A stretch of 32,000 bases of DNA from Psychrobacter sp. DM4 (GCF_051307035.1 NZ_CP195536.1:690001-722000), one strand, 5' to 3'; shown: positions 5,131 to 24,566, counted from the stretch's first letter. Numbers and translations: made by a program. Notes: generated by a model not told the origin, from the sequence alone.

Positions 5131-5913
5131 TCAGACACTAACGAACGGAACTAGCGTGTCACGGCGCATCCAAGTCGCGATAGAATAGCGCTGGCGATAA
5201 GCGGTTTGTACTTGATGACGCAAATCGCTATGAAAGATAATTAAGCGATTAGCTACTGGCAAAATTACATTATGGACGCCGTGATGATCAACGATCTCTA
5301 ATGCGCCGCCATCATCCTTCTCCCAGTTGTCATTGAGATAAAATACCGCTGATAGCACCCGCTCATCGCGTCCCGTAGGATTATCACTGTGCCACTGATA
5401 GCCAAAACCAATAGGGTAGCAGGCATAATGCGCCTCGCTATGACGAATACCGGTATACAAGGTACGGTTTAAGACGCCAGCTAACTCATTGATGCTTTGT
5501 AGGTAGTAAAATCCTGCATAGAAGTCTTTATTAATCCAGCGGATTTTATCCCCGCGTATATGACTCAAGCGTACCCCCGCCGCCAGATGCGCATCCCGAT
5601 AATCGATAAAGCCACTTTCTGCTTGTAGGGCGAGTAGGGCTCTATCTTCAAATATCTTATCAATGATAATAAAACCCTCAAAGCTAAGCTTATCTAGCTC
5701 ATCATCAGTAAGCCTATGTTCCCAATCGACATGAAAGTGAGACGATAACAACGCATTTTGCTTCTGATCAACACTATGAGCTTCATTGCTAGTGTAATTG
5801 ATATCTGACTGATGCGGTAGTAGAGACAAATTATCGGCTGCTATACGCTCGTTAATGCGCAGCTGCTTTAGATCAGCATCTATTACTTCAATACTACTGC
5901 TAATCGTTGTCAT
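5131..5913 (-). CDS. 2OG-Fe(II) oxygenase superfamily protein (prolyl-4-hydroxylase-like fold)
   Basis: HxD...H facial triad candidates (WHSDNP ... IIFHSDLRHQV) plus a distal RYSIATW arginine, in the spacing of 2OG-dependent oxygenases. Confidence 0.65.
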   Translation of the reverse strand: MTTISSSIEVIDADLKQLRINERIAADNLSLLPHQSDINYTSNEAHSVDQKQNALLSSHFHVDWEHRLTDDELDKLSFEGFIIIDKIFEDRALLALQAESGFIDYRDAHLAAGVRLSHIRGDKIRWINKDFYAGFYYLQSINELAGVLNRTLYTGIRHSEAHYACYPIGFGYQWHSDNPTGRDERVLSAVFYLNDNWEKDDGGALEIVDHHGVHNVILPVANRLIIFHSDLRHQVQTAYRQRYSIATWMRRDTLVPFVSV

Positions 5914-7937: not shown

Positions 7938-10052
7938 TTATTTCGCAAGTATTTGCTGTAATTGTTGGCGTAGATTTTTGGGGTCTATAGGTTTGTGCAA
8001 TACTAGTGGGTTGATTGCTTTGGTGGCCGTAAATAGCTGCGGTGACGTATCTGCGGTCAAGATAATGAATGGCGTTGCATTTGCAAGGTCACTGCTTTTT
8101 CGAATAGCAAGGATAATATCTTCACCCGTTACATTATTAGCCAAGCGAAAGTCAGTGATCACGATATCGGGTCTACGTGCAGCAAAAGCAGTTACCGCAT
8201 CCTCTAATGTCTTTACAGCAATAGGCTGACAGCCCCAAGAGCCAAGCAACAATTGCATTGATTTTAATACGGCATCATCATCATCAATGATTAACACAAC
8301 CTTTTGTTTGAGATGATCGATAGTCGTATTATTATCTAGATTCCCATCATTAATAGGCTGGCAAGTTGGGAGCACAATCGAGAACTGCGATCCGACACCA
8401 ATACTTGACTTGACGTCGAGCTCAGCTTTTAGCAGTTGCGTCATACCTTTGACGATAGCCAAACCCAGACCCAATCCTTGATCTGTCGTTTTGTTACGCT
8501 CTATCTGATAAAACGATTCAAATATCTGTTCCGTTTCATCAGCAGTCATGCCGCTTCCTGTATCCCAAACACTAACGCGACAATACGTTATCAAGATAGA
8601 TTGATTTACTATTGGAGATTTGCGTACGCCAACGACTATACCGCCCTCATTGGTATAGCGTATGGCATTACTAATGAGGTTTCTGAGGATAAGCGCGATC
8701 ATAGTAGGGTCAGTCATAACCCAAGTACCTTTGGGTGTATAGCGTAGGGATAAGCCTTTGTTATCAGCCTGAATCCCAAACTCATCGATCAGATTCTGAA
8801 TAATACTATCAAGATTGGTAGCAGTATACTGCGCGGTCATCTGACCGGACTCAATGTGCGCGTAATCTAATATCGTATTGAGCATCTCTCGACTAGAGTG
8901 GCTGGCAGATTTTGCATAGTCGACTATCTGCGATTGATGAAGATCAAGGTCAGTATCAGCCAATGCTTCGATGAATAGACTTAGCGCGTGGACAGGCTGA
9001 CGCAAATCGTGACTGGCTGATGCTAAGATTTTAGTCTTCGCTAGGCTTGCTTCTTCGACTTGGCGAGTTTTTATTTGCAGTTGAGCAATCAGACTCTCGT
9101 TTTCTATATAAACCAAAATCGCCTTCAAGGTATTAATAGAGGTATGGCGAGCAAAGAAAATATCAAAGAACAATAGCCCAATGACAGCAAAAGCTAAAAT
9201 GATGAGTCCAGTATCGGTCATATAGCTCAACAAAAAAATCCATACAAAAACACTAGGTAGAGCGTAGGCAATATAAACTCGCCAAAACGTTGCCAAACAT
9301 GAGATGCCACCACTTAACAGACCCAAATGCAGTCCTAGCAGGACTATTACTTGCGTTGAGTTTTGGATGTTAGTCGTAAAAGCTTTACCAATAGCCAGTG
9401 CCCATAGACAGGCAATGGCAAGTGCACAGACAAATAACACACTATAAGCGGCGTAGTTAGCTAGATAATGAGCATGACTCACAGAAGTCGCCGCACTTAG
9501 AACTGGCATTTGAGTATGGTCTGTTTCTATAGGCTTGTCAGGCGCATTAAGCTTATGAAATAAAGCTTTTATTTTTTCCCAGTGGCTCCAGCAAAAGGTA
9601 AGAATAATACTATGAAATACTATCCAAACAACGACTAAAGCATTTGTAGCAAGCAGCATCATTTCAGGCGTATGGAGCAGCATAACGGTAAAGACTATAA
9701 TACCCAAGATCATAGCCGACGAAAATAATATAGCAAAACTGATGAATATATTTTTTAAAAATTTAAGACTAAGACTCTCTACCCGCTTTAGTATTAGTTG
9801 AGTGATCTGCCACAATGACCCTAAAATAATCGCCTGATAGACTATCCAGAATATATTGAGTATCTTTTGATTGTTACTGAGATCGTAGGTGATGTACATC
9901 GTTGCCACAAAACAGAGTGCTGTAAAAAGCGTGCCTAACAATGCTAAGGGTAGATATCTATGAGCCAGTTTGGTCTGCTCTGCTAGTACTAGTTTGGGAT
10001 CATAGTGGTTTGGGATAAGGCTAGGTAGAGCCTCTATATCGTCTTTAAACAT
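7938..10052 (-). CDS. Hybrid sensor histidine kinase / response regulator with a multi-TM N-terminal sensor region
   Basis: About eight hydrophobic helices by eye in aa 30-300. H-box ASASHDLRQPVHAL, HATPase_c N/G boxes (NLISNAIRYT ... DTGSGM ... GLGLGLAIV) and a C-terminal receiver (VLIIDDDD ... ITDFRL ... LHKP). Confidence 0.88.
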   Translation of the reverse strand: MFKDDIEALPSLIPNHYDPKLVLAEQTKLAHRYLPLALLGTLFTALCFVATMYITYDLSNNQKILNIFWIVYQAIILGSLWQITQLILKRVESLSLKFLKNIFISFAILFSSAMILGIIVFTVMLLHTPEMMLLATNALVVVWIVFHSIILTFCWSHWEKIKALFHKLNAPDKPIETDHTQMPVLSAATSVSHAHYLANYAAYSVLFVCALAIACLWALAIGKAFTTNIQNSTQVIVLLGLHLGLLSGGISCLATFWRVYIAYALPSVFVWIFLLSYMTDTGLIILAFAVIGLLFFDIFFARHTSINTLKAILVYIENESLIAQLQIKTRQVEEASLAKTKILASASHDLRQPVHALSLFIEALADTDLDLHQSQIVDYAKSASHSSREMLNTILDYAHIESGQMTAQYTATNLDSIIQNLIDEFGIQADNKGLSLRYTPKGTWVMTDPTMIALILRNLISNAIRYTNEGGIVVGVRKSPIVNQSILITYCRVSVWDTGSGMTADETEQIFESFYQIERNKTTDQGLGLGLAIVKGMTQLLKAELDVKSSIGVGSQFSIVLPTCQPINDGNLDNNTTIDHLKQKVVLIIDDDDAVLKSMQLLLGSWGCQPIAVKTLEDAVTAFAARRPDIVITDFRLANNVTGEDIILAIRKSSDLANATPFIILTADTSPQLFTATKAINPLVLHKPIDPKNLRQQLQQILAK

Positions 10053-10122: not shown

Positions 10123-10758
10123 TTAGGTAAGATACCCTGCTTGCTGCGCTGCAATGATAATTTTGGTGCGATTATTGACTTCAAAATGCTTCATTAGTGT
10201 AACGGTATAATTGCGTACCGTATGCTCACTAAGAAATAGTTTGTCAGCGATATACTTATTACTATGACCTTCAGCCATAAGCCCTAACACCTCTAATAAT
10301 CGAATACTAAGCAGCGACTTGGCTTCTGTAACCGCTGGCAGGGGTATAGCGGTGACCTGACTACTCGTATTTGACACATGCAATTTTAGAAGCGATTGTA
10401 CCGTAGTGCAAATAACCGCAGGATCTGTATTTTTGTTCAAAAAACAACTGGCCCCTAATGCTAGTGCCTTGTTGATATCTTGATGGTTACTAAGTGCCGA
10501 TAGCAACATAATACGCGCTTGTGGCCATTTTTTTTGCAAAATACTCATGCCGTCAATGCCATTGAGTCCTGGCAGACAGATATCCAATAAGATCACATCT
10601 ACTTCTACATCTAGTTCAGTCACATCGCTAATTTTCTCAATTTCAGTAATATTTGCTTTTATTTTACTTTGTAAAATAAGACGTAACCCTGCGCGAAACA
10701 AAGCATGGTCATCTACTAGCAATAAACTTTTTTTGGCTACTTCTTCAGTCATATTCAA
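10123..10758 (-). CDS. LuxR/NarL/FixJ-family response regulator (receiver plus C-terminal HTH)
   Basis: Receiver (LLLVDDHALFRAGL ... ILLDICLPGLNG ... K) and a LuxR-type HTH (...LSIRLLEVLGLMAEGHSNKYIADKLFLSEHTVRNYTVTLMKHF...). The track start at 10758 is TTG; ATG at 10752 is an alternative. It lies upstream of, and is probably co-transcribed with, the hybrid kinase. Confidence 0.85.
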   Translation of the reverse strand: MNMTEEVAKKSLLLVDDHALFRAGLRLILQSKIKANITEIEKISDVTELDVEVDVILLDICLPGLNGIDGMSILQKKWPQARIMLLSALSNHQDINKALALGASCFLNKNTDPAVICTTVQSLLKLHVSNTSSQVTAIPLPAVTEAKSLLSIRLLEVLGLMAEGHSNKYIADKLFLSEHTVRNYTVTLMKHFEVNNRTKIIIAAQQAGYLT

Positions 10759-11117: not shown

Positions 11118-14100
11118 ATGCTAAACCATGTCTACCGCGTCATCTTCAACCGCTCAACGGGCTGCTATATGGCAGTGAGTGAAATCACTAAATCGGGCGG
11201 CAAGTCAAGTCGCTCAACTCAAGTAGGTACTGTTGGCGCTATCCCAGCAACTACTACAGACAAGTTATGGCGTCGCCAAGCGATAGCGGTGGCGATAAGT
11301 GGTGCGTTGGGTCTGACGTTAGGACTGACAGCAGTTGGTGCTCAGGCAGAGGTATGTCTTCTCAATGGTAACCCAACGGGTGGTAGCTCTGGAAATGGTG
11401 TTGAAGCTACAGCTTGTGGTTTTGGTAATATAGCCTCAAATCAGGCCAGCTCAGCAATAGGTTTTCAAAACCAAGCGTCAGGCGTTGCCAGCTCAGCGAT
11501 AGGCTCTTCAAACCAAGCGTCACAAAGATTTAGCTCGGCAATAGGCTTTCAGAACAATGCTTCAGCTTTTGCAGCTTCTGCAATTGGTCGTACTAATAAT
11601 GCCTCAGGTCAAGATAGCTCGGCGATAGGTAGTAGCAACACTGCTCAAGGTACAAATAGCTCAGCGATAGGTTTTAACAACACCGCTTTCGCTAATAACA
11701 GCATAGCTATTGGCTCAAACGCGACGGCTAATATTGCTAATAGTGTGGCTTTAGGAGAGCGCAGCGTTACTACGGTTAATGCAGGCGTGCAAGGATTTGG
11801 TGCTAATGGTAGAACCAATGCCACATGGCAATCTACCCTTGCAGCGGTTAGTGTCGGCAACACTAATAATAACCTAACTCGTCAAATTACAGGTGTGGCT
11901 GCAGGGACAGCGGATACCGATGCCGTCAATATTGCTCAGCTAAGACAAGTGGCTAACTCTGTGCAAAATGGTGCTGATGGTGCTGATGGTGCTGATGGTG
12001 CTCAAGGGATTCAGGGCGAGCGAGGCATTCAAGGTGAGCGAGGCATTCAAGGTGAGCGAGGCATTCAAGGTGAGCGAGGCATTCAAGGTGAGCGAGGCAT
12101 TCAAGGTGAGCGAGGGGTTACTGGTGCTCGGGGTGAGAGAGGTTTTCAAGGGGCAACTGGTGCTACTGGTGAACAAGGGGTAGCAGGTCAAGACGGTGTT
12201 AATGGTGCAATGGGTGATCAGGGTATCCAAGGCGAGCGAGGCGAACGAGGCCTTCAAGGACTACAGGGTGATGCTGGAGTAAATGGTACGAATGGCCAAG
12301 ATGGTGCAACGGGTGCCCAAGGTATTCAAGGTGAAACTGGCGCAACAGGTGTTCAAGGCGAACAGGGCTTGCAGGGCGTAGCAGGGGAAAATGGCGCAAT
12401 GGGCGCTCAAGGAGATCAGGGCATCCAAGGTGTAGCAGGTCAGGATGGCACTAATGGGATCAATGGTCAAGACGGTGCAACAGGCGCTCAAGGCGAACGA
12501 GGTATTCAGGGTGAAAGAGGCCTTCAAGGCGAACAAGGTGTTGCTGGAACTAACGGTATTGATGGTACAAATGGTCAGGACGGTGCAACGGGTGCCCAAG
12601 GTATTCAAGGTGAAACTGGCGCAACGGGCGCTCAAGGAAATCAGGGCATCCAAGGTATAGCAGGTACTGACGGAACTAACGGTCAGGACGGTACTAATGG
12701 CTTAAATGGTCAAGATGGTGCTCAAGGTGTTCAGGGCGAACAAGGTCTGCAAGGGGTTCAGGGTGAAACTGGTGCTCAAGGTCTTCAAGGTGAACAAGGC
12801 ATAGCAGGTCAGGATGGTACTGATGGCAATGATGGCGCTGATGGCTTAAACGGTCAAGACGGCATTAACGGTGTCGATGGCGCTCAAGGCGAGCAAGGTA
12901 TCCAAGGCGAACAAGGTCTTCAAGGTGAGCAGGGGATAGCAGGCACTGATGGTGTCGATGGTATTGACGGCTTAAATGGTCAAGACGGCATTAACGGTGT
13001 CGATGGTGCTCAGGGTGAGCAAGGTATCCAAGGCGAGCAGGGCATTCAAGGCGAGCAAGGTATCCAAGGCGAGCAAGGTATCCAAGGTGAACAAGGTTTG
13101 CAAGGCGAGCAGGGCATTCAAGGCGAGCAGGGCATTCAAGGCGAGCAGGGCATTCAAGGTGAACAAGGTTTGCAAGGCGTAGCAGGTCAAGACGGTGAAA
13201 AAGGTGACAAGGGTGATTCAGGAATTAGCGAAGAAGCTAGAGCTGAACTAGTAGAGCAGATTGAAGATAGTAAAGTTCAATTTGTAAGTATCAATAGCTT
13301 TGATGACGAAAACGAAGGCAACTCTAATGGTAACGGTGCGACAGCTGATGGTGCCATAGCCATTGGTGTCAATACCAAAGCAACGGGTACAAATAGCACT
13401 GCTGTAGGAACGGATAGCATAGTCACGGGTGATCAATCTACCAGCGTCGGCAAAGGCAACATCGTCTCAGGCGATCGCTCAGGCGCTTTCGGTGATCCTA
13501 ACATAGTTGGCGGTAGTGCTAACTACGCCGTCGGTAATGACAACACTATAGGCAACACCACGAGCAATTCAGTGGTCTTAGGTAGCAATGCCACCGTTGG
13601 GGCCACTTCTGCAACGACCGATACTAATGGCAATCCAGTCTTTGCTAATGCAACCGATGCCTCAAACTCAGTAGCTATTGGTGAGTCAGTCAATGTTCAG
13701 GCAACGGATGCCGTGGCTATTGGCTCTAACAGCAGCGCTACTAATAACAACTCGGTAGCCCTAGGAGCGAACTCTCAGACTAGTGCGGATAATACGGTAT
13801 CAGTAGGTAATGCAAACAACCAACGACGCATTACTAATGTTGCAGCTGGAGTTGATGCTAATGATGCGGTCAATGTTGGTCAGAGTCAAGCTGATGATAG
13901 TCAAACTTTAGATCTCGCTAACGACTATACCAATCAGCGTTTTGCAGCATTCGATCAGAACTTAGGCTTATTCAGAGGTGATATAGATTCACGCTTTAAA
14001 GAGCAGGATCAACGCATTGACAAAGTCGGAGCGATGAGTGCTGCTATCCAAAACATGGGTACCAGCGTCAGTGGCATGAATCAGCGCAATCGCGTAGGTC

Positions 14101-14243
14101 TAGGTATGGGTTTTCAAGGAAGCGAGCAGGCGGTAGCTATTGGTTATCAACGTGTCGTTTCTGATAATGCGTCAGTGACATTTAGTGGTGCTTTTAGTGA
14201 TAATGAGTCCTCTGCAGGTGTAGGCGTAGGTTTTGGTTGGTAA
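11118..14243 (+). CDS. Trimeric autotransporter adhesin 1 (ESPR signal, YadA-like head, neck, collagen-like stalk, second head, neck, YadA-type beta-barrel anchor)
   Basis: N-terminus MLNHVYRVIFNRSTGCYMAVSEITKSG resembles the extended signal peptide region of autotransporters, and signal cleavage is likely after AVGAQA. 14-residue head repeats (SSAIGxxNxASGxx). Neck motif RQITGVAAGTADTDAVNIAQL. 139 Gly-X-Y triplets. A second Hep/Hag-type head. RRITNVAAGVDANDAVNV. The C-terminal four-strand anchor ends ...GVGVGFGW. Confidence 0.9.
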   Translation: MLNHVYRVIFNRSTGCYMAVSEITKSGGKSSRSTQVGTVGAIPATTTDKLWRRQAIAVAISGALGLTLGLTAVGAQAEVCLLNGNPTGGSSGNGVEATACGFGNIASNQASSAIGFQNQASGVASSAIGSSNQASQRFSSAIGFQNNASAFAASAIGRTNNASGQDSSAIGSSNTAQGTNSSAIGFNNTAFANNSIAIGSNATANIANSVALGERSVTTVNAGVQGFGANGRTNATWQSTLAAVSVGNTNNNLTRQITGVAAGTADTDAVNIAQLRQVANSVQNGADGADGADGAQGIQGERGIQGERGIQGERGIQGERGIQGERGIQGERGVTGARGERGFQGATGATGEQGVAGQDGVNGAMGDQGIQGERGERGLQGLQGDAGVNGTNGQDGATGAQGIQGETGATGVQGEQGLQGVAGENGAMGAQGDQGIQGVAGQDGTNGINGQDGATGAQGERGIQGERGLQGEQGVAGTNGIDGTNGQDGATGAQGIQGETGATGAQGNQGIQGIAGTDGTNGQDGTNGLNGQDGAQGVQGEQGLQGVQGETGAQGLQGEQGIAGQDGTDGNDGADGLNGQDGINGVDGAQGEQGIQGEQGLQGEQGIAGTDGVDGIDGLNGQDGINGVDGAQGEQGIQGEQGIQGEQGIQGEQGIQGEQGLQGEQGIQGEQGIQGEQGIQGEQGLQGVAGQDGEKGDKGDSGISEEARAELVEQIEDSKVQFVSINSFDDENEGNSNGNGATADGAIAIGVNTKATGTNSTAVGTDSIVTGDQSTSVGKGNIVSGDRSGAFGDPNIVGGSANYAVGNDNTIGNTTSNSVVLGSNATVGATSATTDTNGNPVFANATDASNSVAIGESVNVQATDAVAIGSNSSATNNNSVALGANSQTSADNTVSVGNANNQRRITNVAAGVDANDAVNVGQSQADDSQTLDLANDYTNQRFAAFDQNLGLFRGDIDSRFKEQDQRIDKVGAMSAAIQNMGTSVSGMNQRNRVGLGMGFQGSEQAVAIGYQRVVSDNASVTFSGAFSDNESSAGVGVGFGW
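12015..12115 (+). repeat. Near-perfect 18-bp tandem array (GAGCGAGGCATTCAAGGT, about 5.5 copies) encoding (GERGIQ)n
   Basis: Read directly from the DNA at 12015-12115. The copies are identical at the nucleotide level, not only at the protein level. Confidence 0.9.
13014..13175 (+). repeat. Nine 18-bp units encoding GEQG(I/L)Q, with synonymous-codon variants
   Basis: GGTGAGCAAGGTATCCAA, GGCGAGCAGGGCATTCAA and GGTGAACAAGGTTTGCAA alternate across 13014-13175. Confidence 0.85.
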
Positions 14244-14288: not shown

Positions 14289-14325
14289 GAGTTAGTTAGA
14301 TGGATATTAAGCATCTAACTAACTC
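14289..14325 (+). other. Perfect 14-bp inverted repeat (hairpin) in the spacer between the two adhesin genes
   Basis: GAGTTAGTTAGATG (14289-14302), a 9-nt loop GATATTAAG, then CATCTAACTAACTC (14312-14325). No T-run follows, so it is not a canonical intrinsic terminator. Confidence 0.6.
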
Positions 14326-14392: not shown

Positions 14393-17300
14393 ATGCTAAA
14401 CCATGTCTATCGCGTCATCTTTAATCGTTCAACAGGCTGCTATGTCGCAGTGAGTGAAATCGCCAAATCTGGTGGCAAATCTAGCAAGTCTACGACGGGT
14501 ACCGTACCAGCCAGTACGACAGGCACAACGCTACGTCATCGTACCATCGCAGTGGCTATAGGCAGTATCTTGGGACTGACAATGATGAGCGCTCAGGCAG
14601 AGGTCTGTATACTTGATCCTGGTAACTCGACTAGCAGCAGCACCGCTACTGGTAATTCTGCTTTTGCTTGTGGTCTTGGCAACGAAGCCTCAGGTACCTT
14701 TAGCTCGGCGCTAGGTATTGGTAACACAGCCTCAAATTTTTCCAGCTCAGCGGTGGGTCGTGCAAACGAAGCCTCAGGTGACTTTAGCTCAGCGATCGGT
14801 AATTTTAATCAAGCTTCAGGTGGCTTTAGCTCAGCGATGGGTTATGAAAACACAGCTTCAGCTCGTAATAGCTCAGCGATGGGTCGTAGCAACATAGCCT
14901 CAGGTCTTTATAGCTCAGCAGTAGGTAGTTTCAGTGAAGCCTCAGAAGCAGGCGCTACTGCCGTTGGTAGTGGTAGTGCAAGTTCCTTTAAACAAGTTCC
15001 AGTAGCAGGCGCCGTCGTACAAGCCGACTTTACCGCTGCGACCACGCCCATACAGACAGATAGTCAGAATCGTCGTTTTAGAGATGACGGTAATGGTGGT
15101 CAGATCTTTGAGTTCGCAGATGCAGACTATGAAGCATTAGGCATAGGTGCAACCGCGAGTGGTATTCGCGCAACAGCGGTTGGCAATACCTCAGTCGCAA
15201 GCGCTCGCGATAGCATCGCGATGGGTACAGGATCAACAGCTAATATTGATAATAGTATTGCTTTAGGTAGCCAAAGCGTCACCACAGTCGATGCAGGCGT
15301 ACAAGGCTTTGGTGCGGACGCTAGAACCACACCAGTATGGCAATCAACCTTAGCGGCAGTGAGTGTAGGAGATACCAGTGATGCTGATCCTGCTAATTGG
15401 CAAACCCGTCAGATCACAGGTGTCGCCGCAGGGACGACTGATACTGATGCGGTCAATGTGGCTCAGCTAAAAGATCAAAAGATCCGTTATGTCAGTATCA
15501 ATTCAGATGCATCTGATGCAGCATCTAATCGCGATAATGATGGCGCGACGGGTGCCGGATCATTGGCTATTGGTATAAATAGTCAGACTTCAGGTAATGC
15601 TGGCTCAGCGATAGGCATAAGTAACAGAGCATCAAGTCAGTTCGGTGTAGCAGTAGGTTTCGGCAATCGAGTCAGTAGTACCGATAATAGTGGTAACTCA
15701 ATCGAAGAGGCCTCAGCGGTAGGTAACCAAAACAGAGCATTAGGTAATCAAGCGTCTGCTTTTGGTCATACCAACACAGCGGTAGGTGACGATAGCTCAG
15801 CCTTTGGTCAAGGTAATATATCAGGAGGTAATGACAGCTCAGCATTAGGTCGCAATAACATTGCCCGCGGCGTTGATAGCTCAGCAGTAGGTTCGCAGAA
15901 CTTTACGACCCTCGAAGCTGAAGACAGCTCAGCCCTCGGTAAAAGGAACCGAACAACAGCACTAGCGAGTTCAGCGATCGGCTACCGCAACGAAGCCTCA
16001 GGTATATTTAGTAGCGTAATGGGCAGTAGCAGTGTTGCCTCAGCTACGGGTGCGACAGCAGTTGGTAGTGGTAGAGAAGATGGCCTAGTAGCTATCGATG
16101 GCGCGATAGTTCAAGCAGAGTTTGCAGCAGCTACAACAGATATAGAAGTTGATGACGAAGGTCGACGCTTCAAATTAGACACTAATAATGATCCCATATT
16201 TGAGTTCGCAGCAGCAGATTATGAAGACTTAGGCATAGGCGCAACCGCGAGTGGTATTCGCGCAACAGCGGTTGGCAATACCTCAGTCGCCAGTGCTCGC
16301 GATAGCATAGCCATGGGTACAGGTTCTACTGCTGACATTCGCAACAGCATCGCTCTAGGCAGTCAAAGCGTCACCACAGTCGATGCAGGCGCACAAGGCT
16401 TTAGCGCTAATGGTAGAACCGATGCCACATGGCAATCGACCTTAGCGGCAGTGAGTGTTGGTAATATTAGTGATGCTGATCCTGCCAATTGGCAAACCCG
16501 TCAAATCACAGGCGTCGCCGCAGGGACGACTGATACTGATGCGGTCAATGTGGCACAGCTACAAAGAGTAGAGACGAACAGCTTCTCTCAAGCACAGAAC
16601 CTAGCCTCTGCCTTTGGTGGTAATGCCGCGTTCAACATGAACGGCACTTTCCAAGCACCGACCTATCGTATTAATAATACTAATTATAACGACGTAGGTT
16701 CAGCATTCACAGCCGTTGATGGAAGACTGACTGACTTGCAAGGACAAATTAATAACATTGAACTTACACCAGGCCCACAGGGTGAACAAGGCATTCAGGG
16801 TGAACAAGGCGAACAAGGAATCCAAGGTATCCAAGGTGTAGCAGGTCAAGATGGCGCTAATGGTGCAATGGGTGTTCAAGGTGAACAGGGCATTCAGGGT
16901 GAACAAGGCGAACAAGGTCTTCAAGGCGAGCAAGGTATAGCAGGCCAAGACGGCACTAACGGTACTAACGGCCTAAATGGTCAAGACGGTGCAACAGGTG
17001 CTCAAGGCGAACAAGGGATTCAAGGTGAGCAAGGCGAACGAGGCCTTCAAGGACTACAGGGCGATGCTGGAGTAAACGGTGCCGATGGTGCAATGGGTGT
17101 TCAAGGTGAACAGGGCATTCAGGGTGAACAAGGCGAACAAGGAATCCAAGGTGAACAAGGTGTAGCAGGTCAAGACGGTGTTAACGGTGCTGATGGCGCT
17201 CAAGGCATTCAAGGCATTCAAGGTGAACAAGGTCTTCAAGGCGAGCAAGGTATAGCAGGCCAAGACGGCACTAACGGTACTAACGGCCTAAATGGTCAAG

Positions 17301-18493
17301 ACGGTGCAACAGGTGCTCAAGGCGAACGAGGCCTTCAAGGACTACAGGGCGATGCTGGAGTAAACGGTGCCGATGGTGCAATGGGTGTTCAAGGCGAACA
17401 AGGAATCCAAGGTGAACAAGGTGTAGCAGGTCAAGACGGCACTAACGGTACTAACGGCCTAAATGGTCAAGACGGTGCAACAGGTGCTCAAGGTATTCAG
17501 GGCGAACAGGGCATTCAAGGTGAACAAGGCGAATCAGGTATTAGCGAAGAGGCCAGAGTTGAACTAGAAGCGCAGATAGAAGAGAGTGAGACTCGCTTCT
17601 TTAGCGTCAATACAAATGAAGAGAAAACCCAAGGCAATTTTAACAACAATGGTGCCACAGCTACAGGCGCAATCGCTATTGGTGTCAATACCAAAGCAAC
17701 GGGTACAAATAGTACTGCTATAGGAACGGACAGCATAGTCACTGGCGATCAATCTACCAGTGTCGGTAAAGGCAACATCGTCTCAGGTAACCGTTCAGGC
17801 GCTTTCGGTGATCCTAACATCGTCGGTGGTAATGCTAACTACGCGGTAGGTAATGACAACGTCATAGGCAACACCACCAGCAACTCAGTCGTCTTAGGTA
17901 GCAATGCAACCGTTGGTGCTACAGCCGCTACGGCAGATGCGCAAGGCAACCCAACCTTTACTAATGCAACCGATGCCTCAAACTCTGTTGCTATCGGTGA
18001 GTCAGTAAACGTTCAAGCAACCAATGCCGTGGCTATCGGCTCTAATAGTAGTGTAACTAATAACAACTCGGTAGCACTAGGAGCGAACTCACAGACCAGT
18101 GCGGATAATACGGTGTCTGTGGGTAGTACCAACAATCAACGCCGTATTACTAATGTCGCATCTGGCATTAACCCAAATGATGCGGTGAATGTCGCACAAC
18201 TTAACCAGTCTCGTGCAGATGCTTTTGGTTATACCGATAGCGCGGTTGATAGACTAGAAGACGAAACCTACTCAGCAGTAGCGGGCGCATTAGCCTTTGG
18301 CGCACTACGCTATCCTAACGTACCCGGTAAAGTCAGTGTTGGTCTCGGGGGCGGCACATGGGAAGGTGAGACAGGGTATGCCGTAGGTATTGGCTATACG
18401 ACACCAAATGGACAGATTTCGTTTAATAGCGCGTTTGGTGGTAGCGGTAGTCAAAATGGAGGTAACGTAGGTGTGAGTTATACCTTTGACTAA
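14393..18493 (+). CDS. Trimeric autotransporter adhesin 2 (ESPR, duplicated head-neck module, FGG-like motif, collagen-like stalk, proximal head, neck, YadA-type anchor)
   Basis: The ESPR MLNHVYRVIFNRSTGCYVAVSEIAKSG is almost identical to adhesin 1. Two head-neck modules each end in RQITGVAAGTTDTDAVNVAQL. Then ...SAFGGNAAFNMNGTFQAPTYRINNTNYNDVGSAF..., 85 Gly-X-Y triplets, a proximal head about 90 percent identical to adhesin 1, RRITNVASGINPNDAVNVAQL, and a C-terminal beta anchor ...GGNVGVSYTFD. Confidence 0.9.
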   Translation: MLNHVYRVIFNRSTGCYVAVSEIAKSGGKSSKSTTGTVPASTTGTTLRHRTIAVAIGSILGLTMMSAQAEVCILDPGNSTSSSTATGNSAFACGLGNEASGTFSSALGIGNTASNFSSSAVGRANEASGDFSSAIGNFNQASGGFSSAMGYENTASARNSSAMGRSNIASGLYSSAVGSFSEASEAGATAVGSGSASSFKQVPVAGAVVQADFTAATTPIQTDSQNRRFRDDGNGGQIFEFADADYEALGIGATASGIRATAVGNTSVASARDSIAMGTGSTANIDNSIALGSQSVTTVDAGVQGFGADARTTPVWQSTLAAVSVGDTSDADPANWQTRQITGVAAGTTDTDAVNVAQLKDQKIRYVSINSDASDAASNRDNDGATGAGSLAIGINSQTSGNAGSAIGISNRASSQFGVAVGFGNRVSSTDNSGNSIEEASAVGNQNRALGNQASAFGHTNTAVGDDSSAFGQGNISGGNDSSALGRNNIARGVDSSAVGSQNFTTLEAEDSSALGKRNRTTALASSAIGYRNEASGIFSSVMGSSSVASATGATAVGSGREDGLVAIDGAIVQAEFAAATTDIEVDDEGRRFKLDTNNDPIFEFAAADYEDLGIGATASGIRATAVGNTSVASARDSIAMGTGSTADIRNSIALGSQSVTTVDAGAQGFSANGRTDATWQSTLAAVSVGNISDADPANWQTRQITGVAAGTTDTDAVNVAQLQRVETNSFSQAQNLASAFGGNAAFNMNGTFQAPTYRINNTNYNDVGSAFTAVDGRLTDLQGQINNIELTPGPQGEQGIQGEQGEQGIQGIQGVAGQDGANGAMGVQGEQGIQGEQGEQGLQGEQGIAGQDGTNGTNGLNGQDGATGAQGEQGIQGEQGERGLQGLQGDAGVNGADGAMGVQGEQGIQGEQGEQGIQGEQGVAGQDGVNGADGAQGIQGIQGEQGLQGEQGIAGQDGTNGTNGLNGQDGATGAQGERGLQGLQGDAGVNGADGAMGVQGEQGIQGEQGVAGQDGTNGTNGLNGQDGATGAQGIQGEQGIQGEQGESGISEEARVELEAQIEESETRFFSVNTNEEKTQGNFNNNGATATGAIAIGVNTKATGTNSTAIGTDSIVTGDQSTSVGKGNIVSGNRSGAFGDPNIVGGNANYAVGNDNVIGNTTSNSVVLGSNATVGATAATADAQGNPTFTNATDASNSVAIGESVNVQATNAVAIGSNSSVTNNNSVALGANSQTSADNTVSVGSTNNQRRITNVASGINPNDAVNVAQLNQSRADAFGYTDSAVDRLEDETYSAVAGALAFGALRYPNVPGKVSVGLGGGTWEGETGYAVGIGYTTPNGQISFNSAFGGSGSQNGGNVGVSYTFD
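15122..16562 (+). repeat. In-frame 1092-bp (364-codon) duplication of the head-neck module in adhesin 2; best conserved cores are 15122-15470 and 16214-16562
   Basis: AACCGCGAGTGGTATTCGCGCAACAGCGGTTGGCAATACCTCAGTCGC occurs at 15151 and 16243, an offset of 1092. The protein segments ADYE(A/D)LGIGATASGIRATAVGNTSVASARDSIAMGTGST...TRQITGVAAGTTDTDAVNVAQL are near-identical. Confidence 0.85.
16772..17539 (+). repeat. Collagen-like Gly-X-Y tract of adhesin 2 (85 consecutive triplets, a single proline in the first triplet GPQ)
   Basis: Hand-parsed from GPQGEQGIQGEQ... to ...GIQGEQGESG. The frame was checked at 16772 and 17537. Confidence 0.9.
16910..17394 (+). repeat. Long perfect in-frame direct repeats inside the collagen tract: 103 bp at 16910-17012 = 17225-17327, and 74 bp at 17033-17106 = 17321-17394
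   Basis: Compared base by base and found identical. The offsets are 315 bp and 288 bp, both multiples of 9. The second copy lacks 27 bp (GEQGIQGEQ) that the first copy carries between two GGCGAAC repeats. Confidence 0.9.
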
Positions 18494-18522
18494 ATAGTAG
18501 TTTAGTTCGTGATACGAAACGC

Positions 18523-18556
18523 AAGTCTACTATCATTTGGTGGTAGGCTTGTTTTA
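18523..18556 (+). terminator. Probable rho-independent terminator of the adhesin genes
   Basis: AAGTCTACTA (18523-18532), an 8-nt loop, TGGTAGGCTT (18541-18550; 10 bp with two G-U pairs), followed by GTTTTAGTT. Confidence 0.55.
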
Positions 18557-18613: not shown

Positions 18614-18641
18614 TTGACCCCTCCGTTAAACTACGTATAAT
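18614..18641 (+). promoter_or_regulatory. rrn promoter P1 (sigma70-type)
   Basis: TTGACC (18614-18619), a 16-nt spacer, TATAAT (18636-18641). An AT-rich UP-like tract lies upstream and a GC-rich discriminator (GCCACCC) downstream. Confidence 0.6.
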
Positions 18642-18770: not shown

Positions 18771-18798
18771 TTGACACCACAATTTAACCGTCTATAAT
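18771..18798 (+). promoter_or_regulatory. rrn promoter P2 (sigma70-type)
   Basis: TTGACA (18771-18776), a 16-nt spacer, TATAAT (18793-18798). An A/T-rich upstream tract (AAACTAAATTAAATAA) and a discriminator ACGCACC. Confidence 0.65.
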
Positions 18799-19246: not shown

Positions 19247-20786
<1,540 letters not shown>

Positions 20787-20874
20787 TAGACAGCATTCAT
20801 CTTGGCAAGAATTCACAACAAGTTGTTCTTTAGTTTTAAGCTAGTTTATTAGCTTTGCCTTTACAGGCAGACAT

Positions 20875-20951
20875 AGGCCTGTAGCTCAGCTGGTTAGAGC
20901 ACCGTGTTGATAACGCGGGGGTCGGCAGTTCAAGTCTGCCCAGGCCTACCA
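20875..20951 (+). tRNA. tRNA-Ile (anticodon GAT)
   Basis: AGGCCTGTAGCTCAGCTGGTTAGAGCACCGTGTTGATAACGCGGGGGTCGGCAGTTCAAGTCTGCCCAGGCCTACCA. Cloverleaf with a 7-bp acceptor, anticodon loop TTGATAA, and an encoded CCA. Confidence 0.95.
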
Positions 20952-21080
20952 TTATTAAGCGGTAGTTAGAACAGTCGTTACATTGCATGAGCTAAAAGTA
21001 ATTAAAGCTTTTTGAAAATCCTATTTAAAGGATTTTCCTTGCGAAGCTAAAATTGCAGTGCAATTTTTACACGCTTCTCA

Positions 21081-21156
21081 GGGGCCATAGCTCAGTTGGT
21101 AGAGCGCCTGCCTTGCACGCAGGAGGTCAACGGTTCGACTCCGTTTGGCTCCACCA
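21081..21156 (+). tRNA. tRNA-Ala (anticodon TGC)
   Basis: GGGGCCATAGCTCAGTTGGTAGAGCGCCTGCCTTGCACGCAGGAGGTCAACGGTTCGACTCCGTTTGGCTCCACCA. The G3-U70 identity pair is present. Confidence 0.95.
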
Positions 21157-21471
21157 TTATAAACAGCGCGATTAGATAGAATATTATAGAGAGCATAAAC
21201 AGAATTAAGTAATCGTTGATGATTATTTACTTCTGTTTTATACAGAACCTGGAATCTGACGAAGATACAGGAACTATTTAAAAACATAGATATGAGTCTG
21301 GGTTAGGACTAACGTGTTCACGCGTTAATCTTAACCTTAATAGCTCACCTCTTAACGACATCAGTTGTTATCCCAGGGGTGAGTTATTAAAAAGTAATAA
21401 GAGAACTGAATCAAGCGTAAACATAGGTGATATCGTTATAATTGTGAGACAAAGACCCTTTGGGGTTGTAT

Positions 21472-24331
<2,860 letters not shown>

Positions 24332-24449
24332 ACAACACCCAAGTGGTTTGTATCAAGCAACTATTTCGATATCACCTATATCCTTGATTCAGGAATAGTG
24401 ATACTTAGTCAAAATAAGTAAAACAACACAGACTCATATCTAACCCCTT

Positions 24450-24566
24450 TGCTGACGACAATAGCACGATGGCACCACCTGATCCCTTCCCGAACTCAGA
24501 AGTGAAACATCGTAGCGCCAATGGTAGTGTGGCTCCGGCCATGTGAGAGTAGGTCATCGTCAGCGC
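24450..24566 (+). rRNA. rrf: 5S ribosomal RNA
   Basis: TGCTGACGACAATAGCACGATGGCACCACCTGATCCCTTCCCGAACTCAGAAGTGAAAC...GAGAGTAGGTCATCGTCAGCGC. Helix I closes 24451-24458 with 24557-24564. Confidence 0.93.

What the first reader, a model, noticed from the sequence alone, without database searches (positions are those of the whole stretch)
16772..17539. Adhesin 2: 85 uninterrupted Gly-X-Y triplets entered through an FGG-like connector
This is a second collagen-like tract (GPQ GEQ GIQ ... GEQ GES) with only one proline. It is built from the same triplet vocabulary and shares DNA modules with adhesin 1. For example, GGCGAACGAGGCCTTCAAGGACTACAGGG(T/C)GATGCTGGAGTAAA occurs at about 12238 in adhesin 1 and at 17033 and 17321 in adhesin 2.

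Unlike adhesin 1, the tract is preceded by ...SAFGGNAAFNMNGTFQAPTYRINNTNYNDVGSAFTAVDGRLTDLQGQINNIELTP. This resembles the FGG-type TAA connector followed by a short coiled coil. The two paralogues therefore use different N-terminal entry junctions into the triple helix but the same exit junction (G(D/E)SGISEEAR). That makes them a natural comparison for how the helix is nucleated.
Basis: partly seen in the sequence, partly recalled or inferred. Interest (0 to 1): 0.7.

Follow-up and report, generated by a model that had tools for sequence, protein, structure and literature searches.

The report
Proline-free collagen stalk in Psychrobacter adhesin
A surface adhesin gene of a cold-adapted Psychrobacter bacterium has an unbroken 86-triplet collagen-like segment with almost no proline between standard adhesin domains; collagen repeats are already known in this adhesin class, but this one offers a tidy natural model for how a triple helix forms without proline.

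Summary
They lie inside an intact 1366-aa trimeric autotransporter adhesin, A2 (14393-18493), which has an ESPR signal, two duplicated head-neck modules, a third head and a YadA anchor.

The connector before the tract is a true FGG domain. Its profile matches the crystallised AtaA FGG_5 (E 2e-17) and the SadA FGG (E 1e-10). About 3.5 canonical heptads and an invariant LTPGP follow it.

The exit, G(D/E)SGIS-EEA..EL...IE.S...F.S.N, is shared with the tandem paralogue A1 (140 triplets, no proline) and with every Psychrobacter homologue whose exit could be read. In those genomes the tract varies from 29 to 111 triplets and is never interrupted. FGG entry is the rule; A1 has lost it.

The shared DNA modules exceed what a shared triplet vocabulary would give.

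My reading is a length-variable, acidic triple-helical spacer. It is probably registered from the conserved C-terminal junction, because these adhesins emerge C-terminus first. Triple-helix formation itself is untested.

Collagen repeats in trimeric autotransporters are already known (Glaesserella parasuis VtaA), so this is a new variant of a known kind.

The parts
14393..18493 (+). Gene A2: an intact trimeric autotransporter adhesin of 1366 aa. It is the syntenic orthologue of the single TAA at this locus in P. submarinus and Psychrobacter sp. DM8.
   Evidence: ORF. Pfam finds ESPR, YadA_head (9 stretches), YadA_stalk (3 stretches), Collagen and YadA_anchor. Synteny.
14393..14599 (+). Extended signal peptide (ESPR) and signal sequence, ending at ...MSAQA|EV.
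   Evidence: Pfam ESPR at E 2e-14, aa 3-41. The AQAEV motif is at aa 67-71. The cleavage site is inferred.
14600..16573 (+). Two duplicated head-neck modules (YadA-like head repeats, then ...WQSTLAAVSVG...TRQITGVAAGTTDTDAVNVAQL neck). They are 67% identical to each other.
   Evidence: The necks are at 15404-15481 and from 16496.
16574..16717 (+). Short coil and FGG connector (QRVETNSFSQAQNLASAFGGNAAFNMNGTFQAPTYRINNTNYNDVGSAFTAV).
   Evidence: phmmer against PDB: SadA 2YO2 at 7e-10 and AtaA 3WPA at 4e-9. The profile of 7 connectors gives 3WPA at 2.3e-17, 2YO2 at 9.8e-11, 3WPR at 1.1e-9 and 2YNY at 1.3e-9.
16718..16771 (+). Entry coiled coil and linker, DGRLTDLQGQINNIELTP. With the preceding V..F..V it gives about 3.5 canonical heptads (V-F-V-L-L-I-I in d/a positions). 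ELTP follows, and LTPGP is invariant in the homologues.
   Evidence: Sequence. Conservation string VG.A..AVDG.LTDLQ.QI..I.LTPGP.. The heptad register was assigned by eye (inference).
16772..17545 (+). Collagen-like tract of 86 uninterrupted Gly-X-Y triplets with 1 Pro (in the first triplet, GPQ). It is rich in GEQ, GIQ, GQD, GLQ and GTN and has a net charge of -33 per chain.
   Evidence: Internal exact DNA repeats reach 103 nt.
17033..17076 (+). Shared DNA module, copy 1 in A2 (encodes GERGLQGLQGDAGVN).
17321..17364 (+). Shared DNA module, copy 2 in A2. It lies inside a 77-nt exact internal repeat (17030-17106 = 17318-17394).
17528..17611 (+). Exit junction: the last two triplets GES-GIS run straight into EEARVELEAQIEESETRFFSVN, a short coil that leads into the next head.
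   Evidence: Conservation string G.SGISE.A..EL...IE.S...F.S.N over 8 distinct homologues, including A1.
17612..18208 (+). C-terminal YadA-like head and neck (RRITNVASGINPNDAVNVAQLNQ).
   Evidence: Pfam YadA_head and YadA_stalk. PDB matches to the BpaC head 7O23 at 9.5e-13 and the AtaA C-terminal head 3WP8 at 5e-11.
18209..18493 (+). Short stalk and YadA-type membrane anchor, with the stop codon.
   Evidence: Pfam YadA_anchor at E 3.2e-11, aa 1307-1365.
11118..14243 (+). Paralogue A1 (1041 aa), an extra TAA gene compared with P. submarinus and DM8. Its neck coil runs directly into 140 triplets (11970-13229, no Pro). It has the same exit junction (13212-13295) and a different anchor type.
   Evidence: P0002/L001 is A1-like at the N-terminus (88% DNA identity) but keeps the FGG connector.
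12240..12283 (+). The shared DNA module in A1.

Best explanation
A2 is a type Vc (trimeric autotransporter) surface adhesin of a Psychrobacter species. Part of its stalk is a collagen-type triple helix instead of the usual coiled coil.

The three chains are held in register by trimeric modules on both sides of the tract. On the N-terminal side these are neck, coil, FGG connector, about 3.5 heptads of coiled coil and the linker LTP. On the C-terminal side the tract runs without a linker (GES-GIS-EEAR...) into a short coil that enters a YadA-like head, followed by neck, stalk and outer-membrane anchor.

The 86 triplets would form a thin rod of about 74 nm (about 120 nm for A1). This rod pushes the two N-terminal head modules away from the cell using roughly half as many residues per nanometre as a coiled coil. 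The repetitive DNA lets the length change by recombination.

Passengers of this secretion type emerge and fold from the C-terminus outward. The conserved exit junction and the head behind it therefore most likely trimerise first and nucleate the helix, which then zips C to N. With almost no proline there is no slow prolyl isomerisation step.

Shown here: the gene structure, the domain identities, the FGG homology, the uninterrupted periodicity, the junction conservation and the length variation. Inferred: triple-helix formation, the dimensions, the direction of nucleation and the adhesive function.
For: Identity of the protein:
- The TAA is complete, with ESPR, heads, necks and anchor.
- The FGG connector matches crystallised FGG domains. 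PMC4910087 states that 3WPA contains FGG_5 with the Leu-Gly-Gly-Gly loop.

Evidence that the tract is a selected triple helix:
- There are 86 triplets here and 815 triplets over 14 tracts with no break in the Gly periodicity, while X and Y residues and triplet number change freely between 29 and 140.
- Position use is strongly asymmetric. E, I, L and V occur only at X. N, M, R and S occur only at Y. Q is 45 at Y against 8 at X. A structureless linker would not need this.
- The tract is always bracketed by obligate trimer modules.

Evidence on the junctions:
- The exit junction is near-invariant in every homologue whose exit could be read, including A1. The FGG entry is absent from A1.
- The single proline belongs to the invariant LTPGP junction, not to the tract proper.

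Evidence for recombination and length change:
- Internal exact repeats reach 103 nt (shuffle maximum 38), and A1 and A2 share modules.
- The related strains L002 and L003 differ, with 107 and 111 triplets.

Precedents:
- VtaA autotransporters carry central collagen repeats, and a VtaA10 collagen fragment runs as an SDS-resistant multimer.
- The E. coli prophage protein EPclA has a coiled coil, a collagen domain and a C-terminal trimeriser. It folds as a trimer, and its C-terminal domain re-nucleates the helix (PMC3368898).
Against: - No experiment or multimer model shows a triple helix.
- Imino acids are essentially absent (1 Pro among 172 X and Y positions). Only E and D carry charge, so K/R-D/E pairs, a known stabiliser of bacterial collagens, are nearly missing (2 Arg, 0 Lys).
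- D and N fill 24 of the 86 Y positions. From my memory of published host-guest peptide data, these are poor Y-position residues.
- At -33 per chain, electrostatic repulsion could lower stability at low salt.
- The direction of nucleation rests on general knowledge of type Vc secretion, not on data for this protein.
- The register of the exit coil (hydrophobic spacing 4-4-4-3-4-3) was assigned by eye over only about 23 residues.
Confidence: 0.7

Rival explanations
1. The tract is a flexible, highly acidic, largely unstructured or only marginally helical tether, not a stable triple helix. Its Gly-X-Y periodicity is a by-product of amplifying 9-nt DNA units.
For: The tract has almost no proline, almost no basic residues and a net charge of -33. 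It is built from recently amplified DNA units, with TRF periods of 9, 18, 27 and 99 and exact repeats up to 103 nt.
Against: Amplification alone does not explain 815 triplets in 14 diverged tracts without one frame-breaking or Gly-replacing change, or the strict X/Y sorting of residues. The tract is clamped at both ends by trimeric modules, which gives a very high local chain concentration. The host grows in the cold, so only modest stability is needed.
Confidence: 0.13
2. The tract is mainly a binding or mimicry surface rather than a spacer. It could bind collagen or collagen receptors of an animal host, as proposed for the collagen domains of VtaA2.
For: Deleting the VtaA2 collagen domains reduced attachment to collagen (PMC6755704). 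A1 carries GIQGER seven times, and A2 has GEQGER and GAQGER. From memory, these have the G-x-x-G-E-R form of integrin-binding collagen motifs.
Against: Tract sequence and length are poorly conserved between species, and only the periodicity and the junctions are kept. Most homologues lack GER triplets. Psychrobacter is mostly environmental or marine. The two roles are not mutually exclusive.
Confidence: 0.1
3. One reading: the N-terminal entry junction (FGG plus coil in A2, neck coil in A1) nucleates the helix, which then folds N to C.
For: Trimeric modules lie immediately N-terminal of the tract in both paralogues. In Streptococcus Scl2 an N-terminal domain nucleates the helix (cited in PMC3368898). 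The entry LTPGP is invariant where the FGG is present.
Against: By established knowledge of type Vc secretion, the N-terminal modules reach the surface last. A1 has lost the FGG and coil and keeps only about 1.5 heptads before 140 triplets, yet it retains the exit junction. P0003, which lacks the exit coil, has only 8 triplets left.
Confidence: 0.2

Closest known systems
VtaA virulence-associated trimeric autotransporters of Glaesserella (Haemophilus) parasuis
   Same: These are trimeric autotransporters with ESPR, YadA heads and anchor. They carry centrally located collagen triple-helix repeats (PF01391) whose number varies between paralogues and strains (PMC6755704, PMC6211672, PMC2820231).
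   Different: The VtaA repeats are proline-rich. An example is the insertion AGPTGPQGPAGPTGSQDP. As described, they lie between the passenger heads and the anchor, whereas here a further head follows the tract. The host is a pig pathogen. Sequence relatedness, and whether VtaA uses an FGG entry, were not tested here.
FGG connectors of SadA (Salmonella; PDB 2YO2, 2YNY) and AtaA (Acinetobacter sp. Tol 5; PDB 3WPA, 3WPR)
   Same: They share the motif (L/F)GG(G/N)a.f...G.f.aPtY.i....YnnVG.A..a.d inserted in a coiled-coil stalk, with profile E-values of 2e-17 to 1e-9.
   Different: In those proteins the coil after the FGG continues as coiled-coil stalk or a neck. Here it ends after about 3.5 heptads in LTP and a collagen tract. 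Only 1 of the 150 best FGG-bearing representative proteins shows that continuation.
EPclA, the collagen-like tail-fibre protein of E. coli O157 prophages
   Same: It has a trimeric coiled coil, then a collagen domain, then a C-terminal trimerising domain. It has been shown to be a trimer with separate melting of helix and coil, and its C-terminal domain re-nucleates the helix (PMC3368898).
   Different: It is a phage fibre, not an outer-membrane autotransporter. Its X positions are 48% Pro and it has many K/R-D/E pairs, whereas A2 has 1 Pro and 2 Arg.
Streptococcal Scl1/Scl2 and Legionella Lcl collagen-like adhesins
   Same: They are bacterial surface proteins in which a hydroxyproline-free Gly-X-Y rod projects a globular domain. 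NCBIfam similarity is limited to the collagen part.
   Different: Scores are far below the family cut-offs (141 against 325 bits for SclB). Those proteins use LPXTG or other anchoring, have no autotransporter domains, and are stabilised by charge pairs and proline.

Membership tests
Trimeric autotransporter adhesin (type Vc secretion) | N-terminal signal peptide, often of the extended ESPR type | tested here: met
   Pfam ESPR at E 2e-14 for A2 and 9e-16 for A1.
Trimeric autotransporter adhesin (type Vc secretion) | Passenger built from YadA-like head repeats and neck/stalk modules | tested here: met
   YadA_head at E 6.6e-40 (9 stretches) and YadA_stalk at 1.2e-20 (3 stretches). PDB matches to the BpaC and AtaA heads.
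Trimeric autotransporter adhesin (type Vc secretion) | C-terminal YadA-type membrane anchor | tested here: met
   A2: YadA_anchor at E 3.2e-11, aa 1307-1365. For A1, Pfam gave no hit at E <= 0.1, but its C-terminus is closely similar to P0001 and P0002, which carry a precomputed PF03895 hit.
Trimeric autotransporter adhesin (type Vc secretion) | Forms surface-exposed homotrimers that mediate adhesion | not testable with these tools
   Needs expression, surface labelling and adhesion assays.
FGG connector (daTAA domain dictionary) | Sequence motif: (L/F)GG(G) loop, then G.f.aP.Y.i and YnnVG.A | tested here: met
   A2 reads AFGGNAAFNMNGTFQAPTYRINNTNYNDVGSAF. Relatives read ALGGGAQF....
FGG connector (daTAA domain dictionary) | Significant profile similarity to FGG domains of known structure | tested here: met
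   3WPA at 2.3e-17, with the best stretch (chain residues 328-395) spanning the NYLGGGAGY loop. 2YO2 at 9.8e-11, 3WPR at 1.1e-9 and 2YNY at 1.3e-9. 3WPA contains FGG_5.
FGG connector (daTAA domain dictionary) | Inserted between coiled-coil segments | tested here: inconclusive
   Heptad-compatible hydrophobic spacing on both sides was assigned by eye. No coiled-coil predictor was available.
FGG connector (daTAA domain dictionary) | Three-dimensional FGG fold in the trimer | not tested
   Only single-chain prediction is offered. No model was built.
Collagen-like triple helix (Pfam PF01391; bacterial collagen-like proteins) | Uninterrupted Gly at every third residue over many triplets | tested here: met
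   86 triplets in A2, 140 in A1 and 815 over 14 homologous tracts without a break. PF01391 at E 1.8e-42.
Collagen-like triple helix (Pfam PF01391; bacterial collagen-like proteins) | Position-specific use of X and Y | tested here: met
   E, I, L and V occur only at X. N, M, R and S occur only at Y. Q is 45 at Y against 8 at X.
Collagen-like triple helix (Pfam PF01391; bacterial collagen-like proteins) | Substantial imino-acid content, or many K/R-D/E charge pairs, as stabilisers | tested here: not met
   1 Pro, 2 Arg and 0 Lys in 86 triplets. Published position tables give 22-48% Pro at X for viral, Gram-positive, prophage and human collagens.
Collagen-like triple helix (Pfam PF01391; bacterial collagen-like proteins) | Adjacent trimerisation domain | tested here: met
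   TAA coil and FGG before the tract, and a coil, head and anchor after it. That these modules are trimeric follows from family knowledge.
Collagen-like triple helix (Pfam PF01391; bacterial collagen-like proteins) | Experimentally triple-helical (CD, protease resistance, EM) | not testable with these tools
   Needs the protein.
VtaA-type collagen-repeat autotransporters | A TAA with PF01391 repeats inside the passenger | tested here: met
   compared with the published VtaA architecture.
VtaA-type collagen-repeat autotransporters | Common descent with, or sequence similarity to, VtaA outside the generic TAA modules | not tested
Scl1/Scl2 (NCBIfam NF038329, NF038330) | Score above the family cut-off, and an LPXTG anchor | tested here: not met
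   141 bits against a cut-off of 325, and 126 against 400. The C-terminus is a YadA anchor.

The most novel reading that the evidence does not exclude
These two paralogues are natural, essentially imino-acid-free collagen triple helices (0 Pro in 140 triplets and 1 Pro in 86). They would be stabilised by Glu at X and Gln at Y rather than by proline or charge pairs. They would fold on the cell surface from a conserved C-terminal coil that abuts the helix with no linker and has an unusual 4-4-4-3 hydrophobic spacing. That spacing suggests a right-handed coil meeting the right-handed collagen supercoil. If so, the pair gives a genetically tractable system, with and without an N-terminal FGG clamp, for studying proline-independent nucleation and zippering and the cold adaptation of collagen.
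Probability: 0.35. Interest if true: 0.65.

Novelty: new variant of a known kind. Interest (0 to 1): 0.45.

Why it matters
Trimeric autotransporter stalks have been analysed structurally almost entirely as coiled coils. Collagen repeats in them have been noted in VtaA, but the literature I could search holds no structure or biophysics for them.

This locus offers defined junctions at both ends of the helix: FGG-coil-LTP|GP at the entry and GxS-GIS|EEA-coil at the exit. It also offers a natural deletion of the entry (A1), a natural length series from 29 to 140 triplets across species, and a composition close to the lower limit for imino acids.

That combination makes three questions directly testable:
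- How is an in-register trimer joined to a staggered triple helix?
- From which end is the helix nucleated during C-to-N secretion?
- How much stability can Glu/Gln triplets provide without proline? This also bears on recombinant collagen design.

For genome annotation, the tract is a practical warning. Short-read assemblies of relatives break inside it.

Tried and rejected
- An exact look-up of A2 in the contig collection found nothing on record.
- A second word-indexed protein search with the entry junction plus 12 triplets returned almost only short collagen fragments. The one useful hit was P0129, another lineage with neck, FGG and collagen.
- The exhaustive profile search with the junction found 1666 FGG-bearing representatives. 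Its top 150 are dominated by giant multi-FGG adhesins, and only one (Psychrobacter-type) has a collagen tract. It therefore shows the junction is uncommon but cannot give its true distribution.
- Two literature leads were rejected as closest relatives. The Burkholderia 'collagen-like domain' adhesins are lipoproteins with a Col_mid_reg domain, and Ralstonia RcpA/B are small non-autotransporter proteins without contiguous GXY runs.
- A recent global survey of trimeric autotransporters mentions neither collagen nor FGG.
- That the shared A1/A2 DNA modules come only from common triplet vocabulary was rejected by shuffles. The 30-nt exact match alone is not exceptional.
- Recent gene conversion between A1 and A2 over the exit and head was rejected. 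DNA identity there is only about 71%.
I draw no stability estimate from it.
- A link to the nearby 2OG-Fe(II) oxygenase (possible prolyl hydroxylase) was considered and set aside. The tract has no Y-position proline, and the enzyme shows no signal peptide.
- No structure prediction was run, because only single chains can be modelled and both the FGG and the triple helix are obligate trimers.

Full report
**Observation**

Translating 16772-17539 gives 85 Gly-X-Y triplets plus one Gly. In the full ORF 14393-18493 the run is 86 triplets (aa 794-1051, nt 16772-17545). It contains one proline and has a net charge of -33. X is mostly E, I, A, V, L and Q. Y is mostly Q, N, D and A. Pfam's Collagen model matches at E 1.8e-42.

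The quoted 44-nt module is at 12240-12283 in the upstream gene and at 17033-17076 and 17321-17364 here.

I tested whether the shared modules follow simply from a shared triplet vocabulary by shuffling both tracts in 9-nt units.
- The longest match with at most one mismatch is 45 nt. Shuffles give 26.6 +/- 3.1, and 1 of 300 reaches 45.
- There are 10 distinct exact matches of 20 nt or more, all in frame. Shuffles give 2.3 +/- 1.5, and 0 of 300 reach 10.
- The 30-nt exact core is, on its own, within the shuffle range.
- Inside A2 the repeats are much longer: 103, 77 and 62 nt exact, against a shuffle maximum of 38. They form a mosaic of re-used modules rather than a simple tandem array.

**What the gene is**

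A2 (1366 aa) has an ESPR signal, nine YadA-head repeat matches, three neck (YadA_stalk) matches, the collagen tract and a YadA membrane anchor. The order of parts is:
1. signal peptide
2. two head-neck modules that are 67% identical duplicates
3. short coil
4. FGG connector
5. coil
6. 86 triplets
7. short coil
8. a third head, similar to the crystallised BpaC head and AtaA C-terminal head
9. neck
10. anchor

The upstream gene A1 (11118-14243, 1041 aa) is a paralogue with 140 triplets and no proline.

The window comes from a Psychrobacter species. G+C is 44.9%. The 16S gene downstream is 98.05% identical to that of Psychrobacter sp. DM8. Ten Psychrobacter genomes carry a homologous adhesin, and wherever enough flank was recovered it lies at the same locus, between the same upstream genes and, where the downstream flank was recovered, the rRNA operon.

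**The connector**

The stretch before the tract aligns to SadA fragments 2YO2 (E 7e-10) and 2YNY, and to AtaA 3WPA (E 4e-9), across the whole motif. A profile of seven Psychrobacter-type connectors improves this to:
- 2.3e-17 for 3WPA, where the best stretch spans the NYLGGGAGY...FTAPSYTVGDSKYNNVGGAIDAL segment
- 9.8e-11 for 2YO2
- 1.1e-9 for 3WPR
- 1.3e-9 for 2YNY

A paper on AtaA states that 3WPA contains FGG_5 with a leucine followed by an exposed tri-glycine loop (PMC4910087).

After the FGG, the hydrophobic residues V-F-V-L-L-I-I fall at alternating 3 and 4 spacing, which gives about 3.5 canonical heptads by my reading. ELTP follows, and then the first Gly.

**Comparison across relatives**

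In every homologue whose entry could be read, the order is FGG...DLQxQIxxIxLTP | GPx..., tract...G(D/E)SGIS | E.A..EL...IE.S...F.S.N. The tract has 29, 35, 36, 36, 47, 54, 55, 107 or 111 triplets. Tracts cut by contig ends or by an N-run are left out of this list.

Four points follow.
- The FGG entry is the common state, and A1's direct entry from a neck coil is the exception. A metagenomic protein (P0002/L001) is 88% identical in DNA to A1 at its N-terminus and has A1's anchor type, yet it still has the FGG. A1 has most likely lost it.
- A2's single proline is part of the invariant LTPGP junction. The body of the tract is proline-free.
- The exit junction is kept in every homologue whose exit could be read, including A1. 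One relative that lacks it (P0003) retains only eight triplets.
- Across 14 tracts and 815 triplets there is no interruption of the Gly periodicity, although composition changes greatly. Other species use GDK, GPQ, GPA, GTN and GVD, with 3-14 prolines.

A2 is the syntenic orthologue of the single adhesin in P. submarinus and DM8, and A1 is an additional gene. A1 and A2 are only about 71% identical in DNA across the exit and head, so the short shared modules are isolated patches.

**Mechanism**

The periodicity, the strict sorting of residues between X and Y and the trimeric modules clamping both ends point to a collagen-type triple helix used as stalk.

Using the textbook rise of about 0.29 nm per residue (my own knowledge), the tract would span about 74 nm in A2 and about 120 nm in A1. 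That is roughly twice the length per residue of a coiled coil. The between-species range is then about 25-95 nm.

I therefore read the tract as an economical spacer of variable length that presents the N-terminal heads. The repetitive DNA provides the means of changing length. Two related strains differ by four triplets.

It is established knowledge for type Vc autotransporters that the passenger emerges C-terminus first. Together with the conservation pattern, this makes the exit junction and the following head the likely registration and nucleation site, with C-to-N zippering. Near-absence of proline would remove slow cis-trans isomerisation.

The exit coil shows hydrophobic spacing I-A-L-I-S-F-V at 4-4-4-3-4-3. 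This is not a canonical heptad pattern. It resembles the 15-residue right-handed repeats known in YadA stalks (my own knowledge). This is a speculative detail.

All of the mechanism is inference. No tool here can show a triple helix.

**Doubts**

Stability is the main doubt. The tract has no imino acids and almost no basic residues (2 Arg, 0 Lys), D or N fills 24 of the 86 Y positions, and the charge is high and negative.

Published position tables give 22-48% Pro at X for viral, Gram-positive, prophage and human collagens (PMC3368898), so this tract is an outlier. From memory of host-guest peptide studies, Glu is the best non-imino residue at X and Gln is among the better ones at Y, which fits the dominant GEQ triplet. 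My rough score from remembered values did not discriminate, and I do not rely on it.

A cold, saline habitat lowers the stability needed and screens charge.

**What is already known**

Collagen repeats inside trimeric autotransporters were described for the VtaA family of Glaesserella parasuis.
- All 13 Nagasaki VtaA proteins have 2-8 PF01391 domains (PMC6211672).
- A VtaA10 collagen fragment migrates as a multimer in SDS (PMC2820231).
- Deleting the VtaA2 collagen domains lowers collagen attachment.

Those repeats are proline-rich.

Other lineages in the protein database also combine YadA domains with PF01391. Examples are P0032, a Negativicoccus protein cluster (P0055), P0051 and P0105. Two of the proteins retrieved, P0032 and P0129, place the tract after an FGG connector. 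Among the 150 best FGG-bearing representatives, only one continues into collagen.

I found no paper on collagen-like autotransporters in Psychrobacter and none on the structure of any such junction.

**Verdict**

It is not a new kind of system. It is a proline-free, FGG-entered variant of the known collagen-repeat autotransporters. It comes with a useful natural comparison: with and without the entry clamp, with a length series, and with an invariant exit.

Interest is moderate, at 0.45.

Noticed in passing
window 5131-5913 (- strand): A 260-aa 2OG-Fe(II) oxygenase (Pfam 2OG-FeII_Oxy_3, E 2e-20). From memory, this superfamily includes prolyl-4-hydroxylase-like enzymes. I see no signal peptide. 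It lies about 5 kb upstream of the two collagen-like adhesins and is syntenic in other Psychrobacter loci. A link to the tracts looks unlikely here because there is no Y-position Pro, but relatives have 3-14 prolines.
   Followed up: partly
window 7938-10052 and 10123-10758 (- strand): A hybrid sensor histidine kinase/response regulator and a LuxR-type response regulator lie divergently, immediately upstream of A1. They are conserved next to the adhesin in P. submarinus (91% DNA identity) and are candidate regulators of the adhesins.
   Followed up: no
window 11118-14243: A1 is an extra adhesin gene compared with P. submarinus and Psychrobacter sp. DM8, which have a single TAA between the two-component system and the rRNA operon. 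A1 has a different anchor type (ending ...GVGVGFGW) from A2 (ending ...VSYTFD). Both anchor types occur at this locus in other species, so the locus swaps modules.
   Followed up: partly
window 11968-12002 and 12005-12115: A1's tract opens with perfect 9-nt repeats (GADGADGAD) and then about six copies of an 18-nt unit (GIQGER). These look like recent slippage products at the point where the FGG connector is missing.
   Followed up: no
window 14289-14325: A perfect 14-bp inverted repeat (GAGTTAGTTAGATG ... CATCTAACTAACTC, 9-nt loop) lies in the 149-nt A1-A2 intergenic region. It could be a terminator or a regulatory hairpin without a T-run. A stronger terminator-like hairpin follows A2 at 18521-18552.
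   Followed up: no
window 14600-15481 vs 15482-16573: The two N-terminal head-neck modules of A2 are a 67%-identical internal duplication. Each carries an insert of about 60 aa in the head (…VQA(D/E)F(T/A)AATT…RRF…IFEF(A)…ADYE…LGIGATASG) that matched no Pfam family.
   Followed up: partly
loci L005, L006 (contig ends) and L009 (N-run): Draft assemblies of P. proteolyticus, Psychrobacter sp. Pi2-1 and P. nivimaris break or are gapped inside the collagen tract. Tract lengths from short-read assemblies are therefore unreliable.
   Followed up: no
proteins P0032, P0055 and P0105 (other lineages, including Negativicoccus): In these autotransporters the collagen tracts are bracketed by a GKSAY(E/D)I(A/W)K..G..G(T/K)E.(E/D)(W/F)…SLKG motif. 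As far as I recall, this motif occurs in phage tail-fibre collagen-like proteins. It suggests exchange of collagen cassettes between phage fibres and adhesins.
   Followed up: no
protein P0011 (1955 aa, PF01391 + PF13884): A phage-fibre-like protein uses the same proline-poor G(I/L/V/E)Q triplet vocabulary as A1 and A2 (44% identity over the tract). The vocabulary is therefore not unique to Psychrobacter adhesins.
   Followed up: no
window 11940-12257 and 12261-12653 (- strand): ORFs of 105 and 130 aa lie antisense to A1's collagen tract. They are most likely artefacts of the repetitive codon structure and not genes.
   Followed up: no
window 19247-24565: A complete rRNA operon (16S, two tRNAs, 23S, 5S) starts about 750 nt downstream of A2. 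This position is conserved in the relatives whose downstream flank was recovered. Strong promoter-like sites lie at 18614-18641 and 18771-18798.
   Followed up: partly
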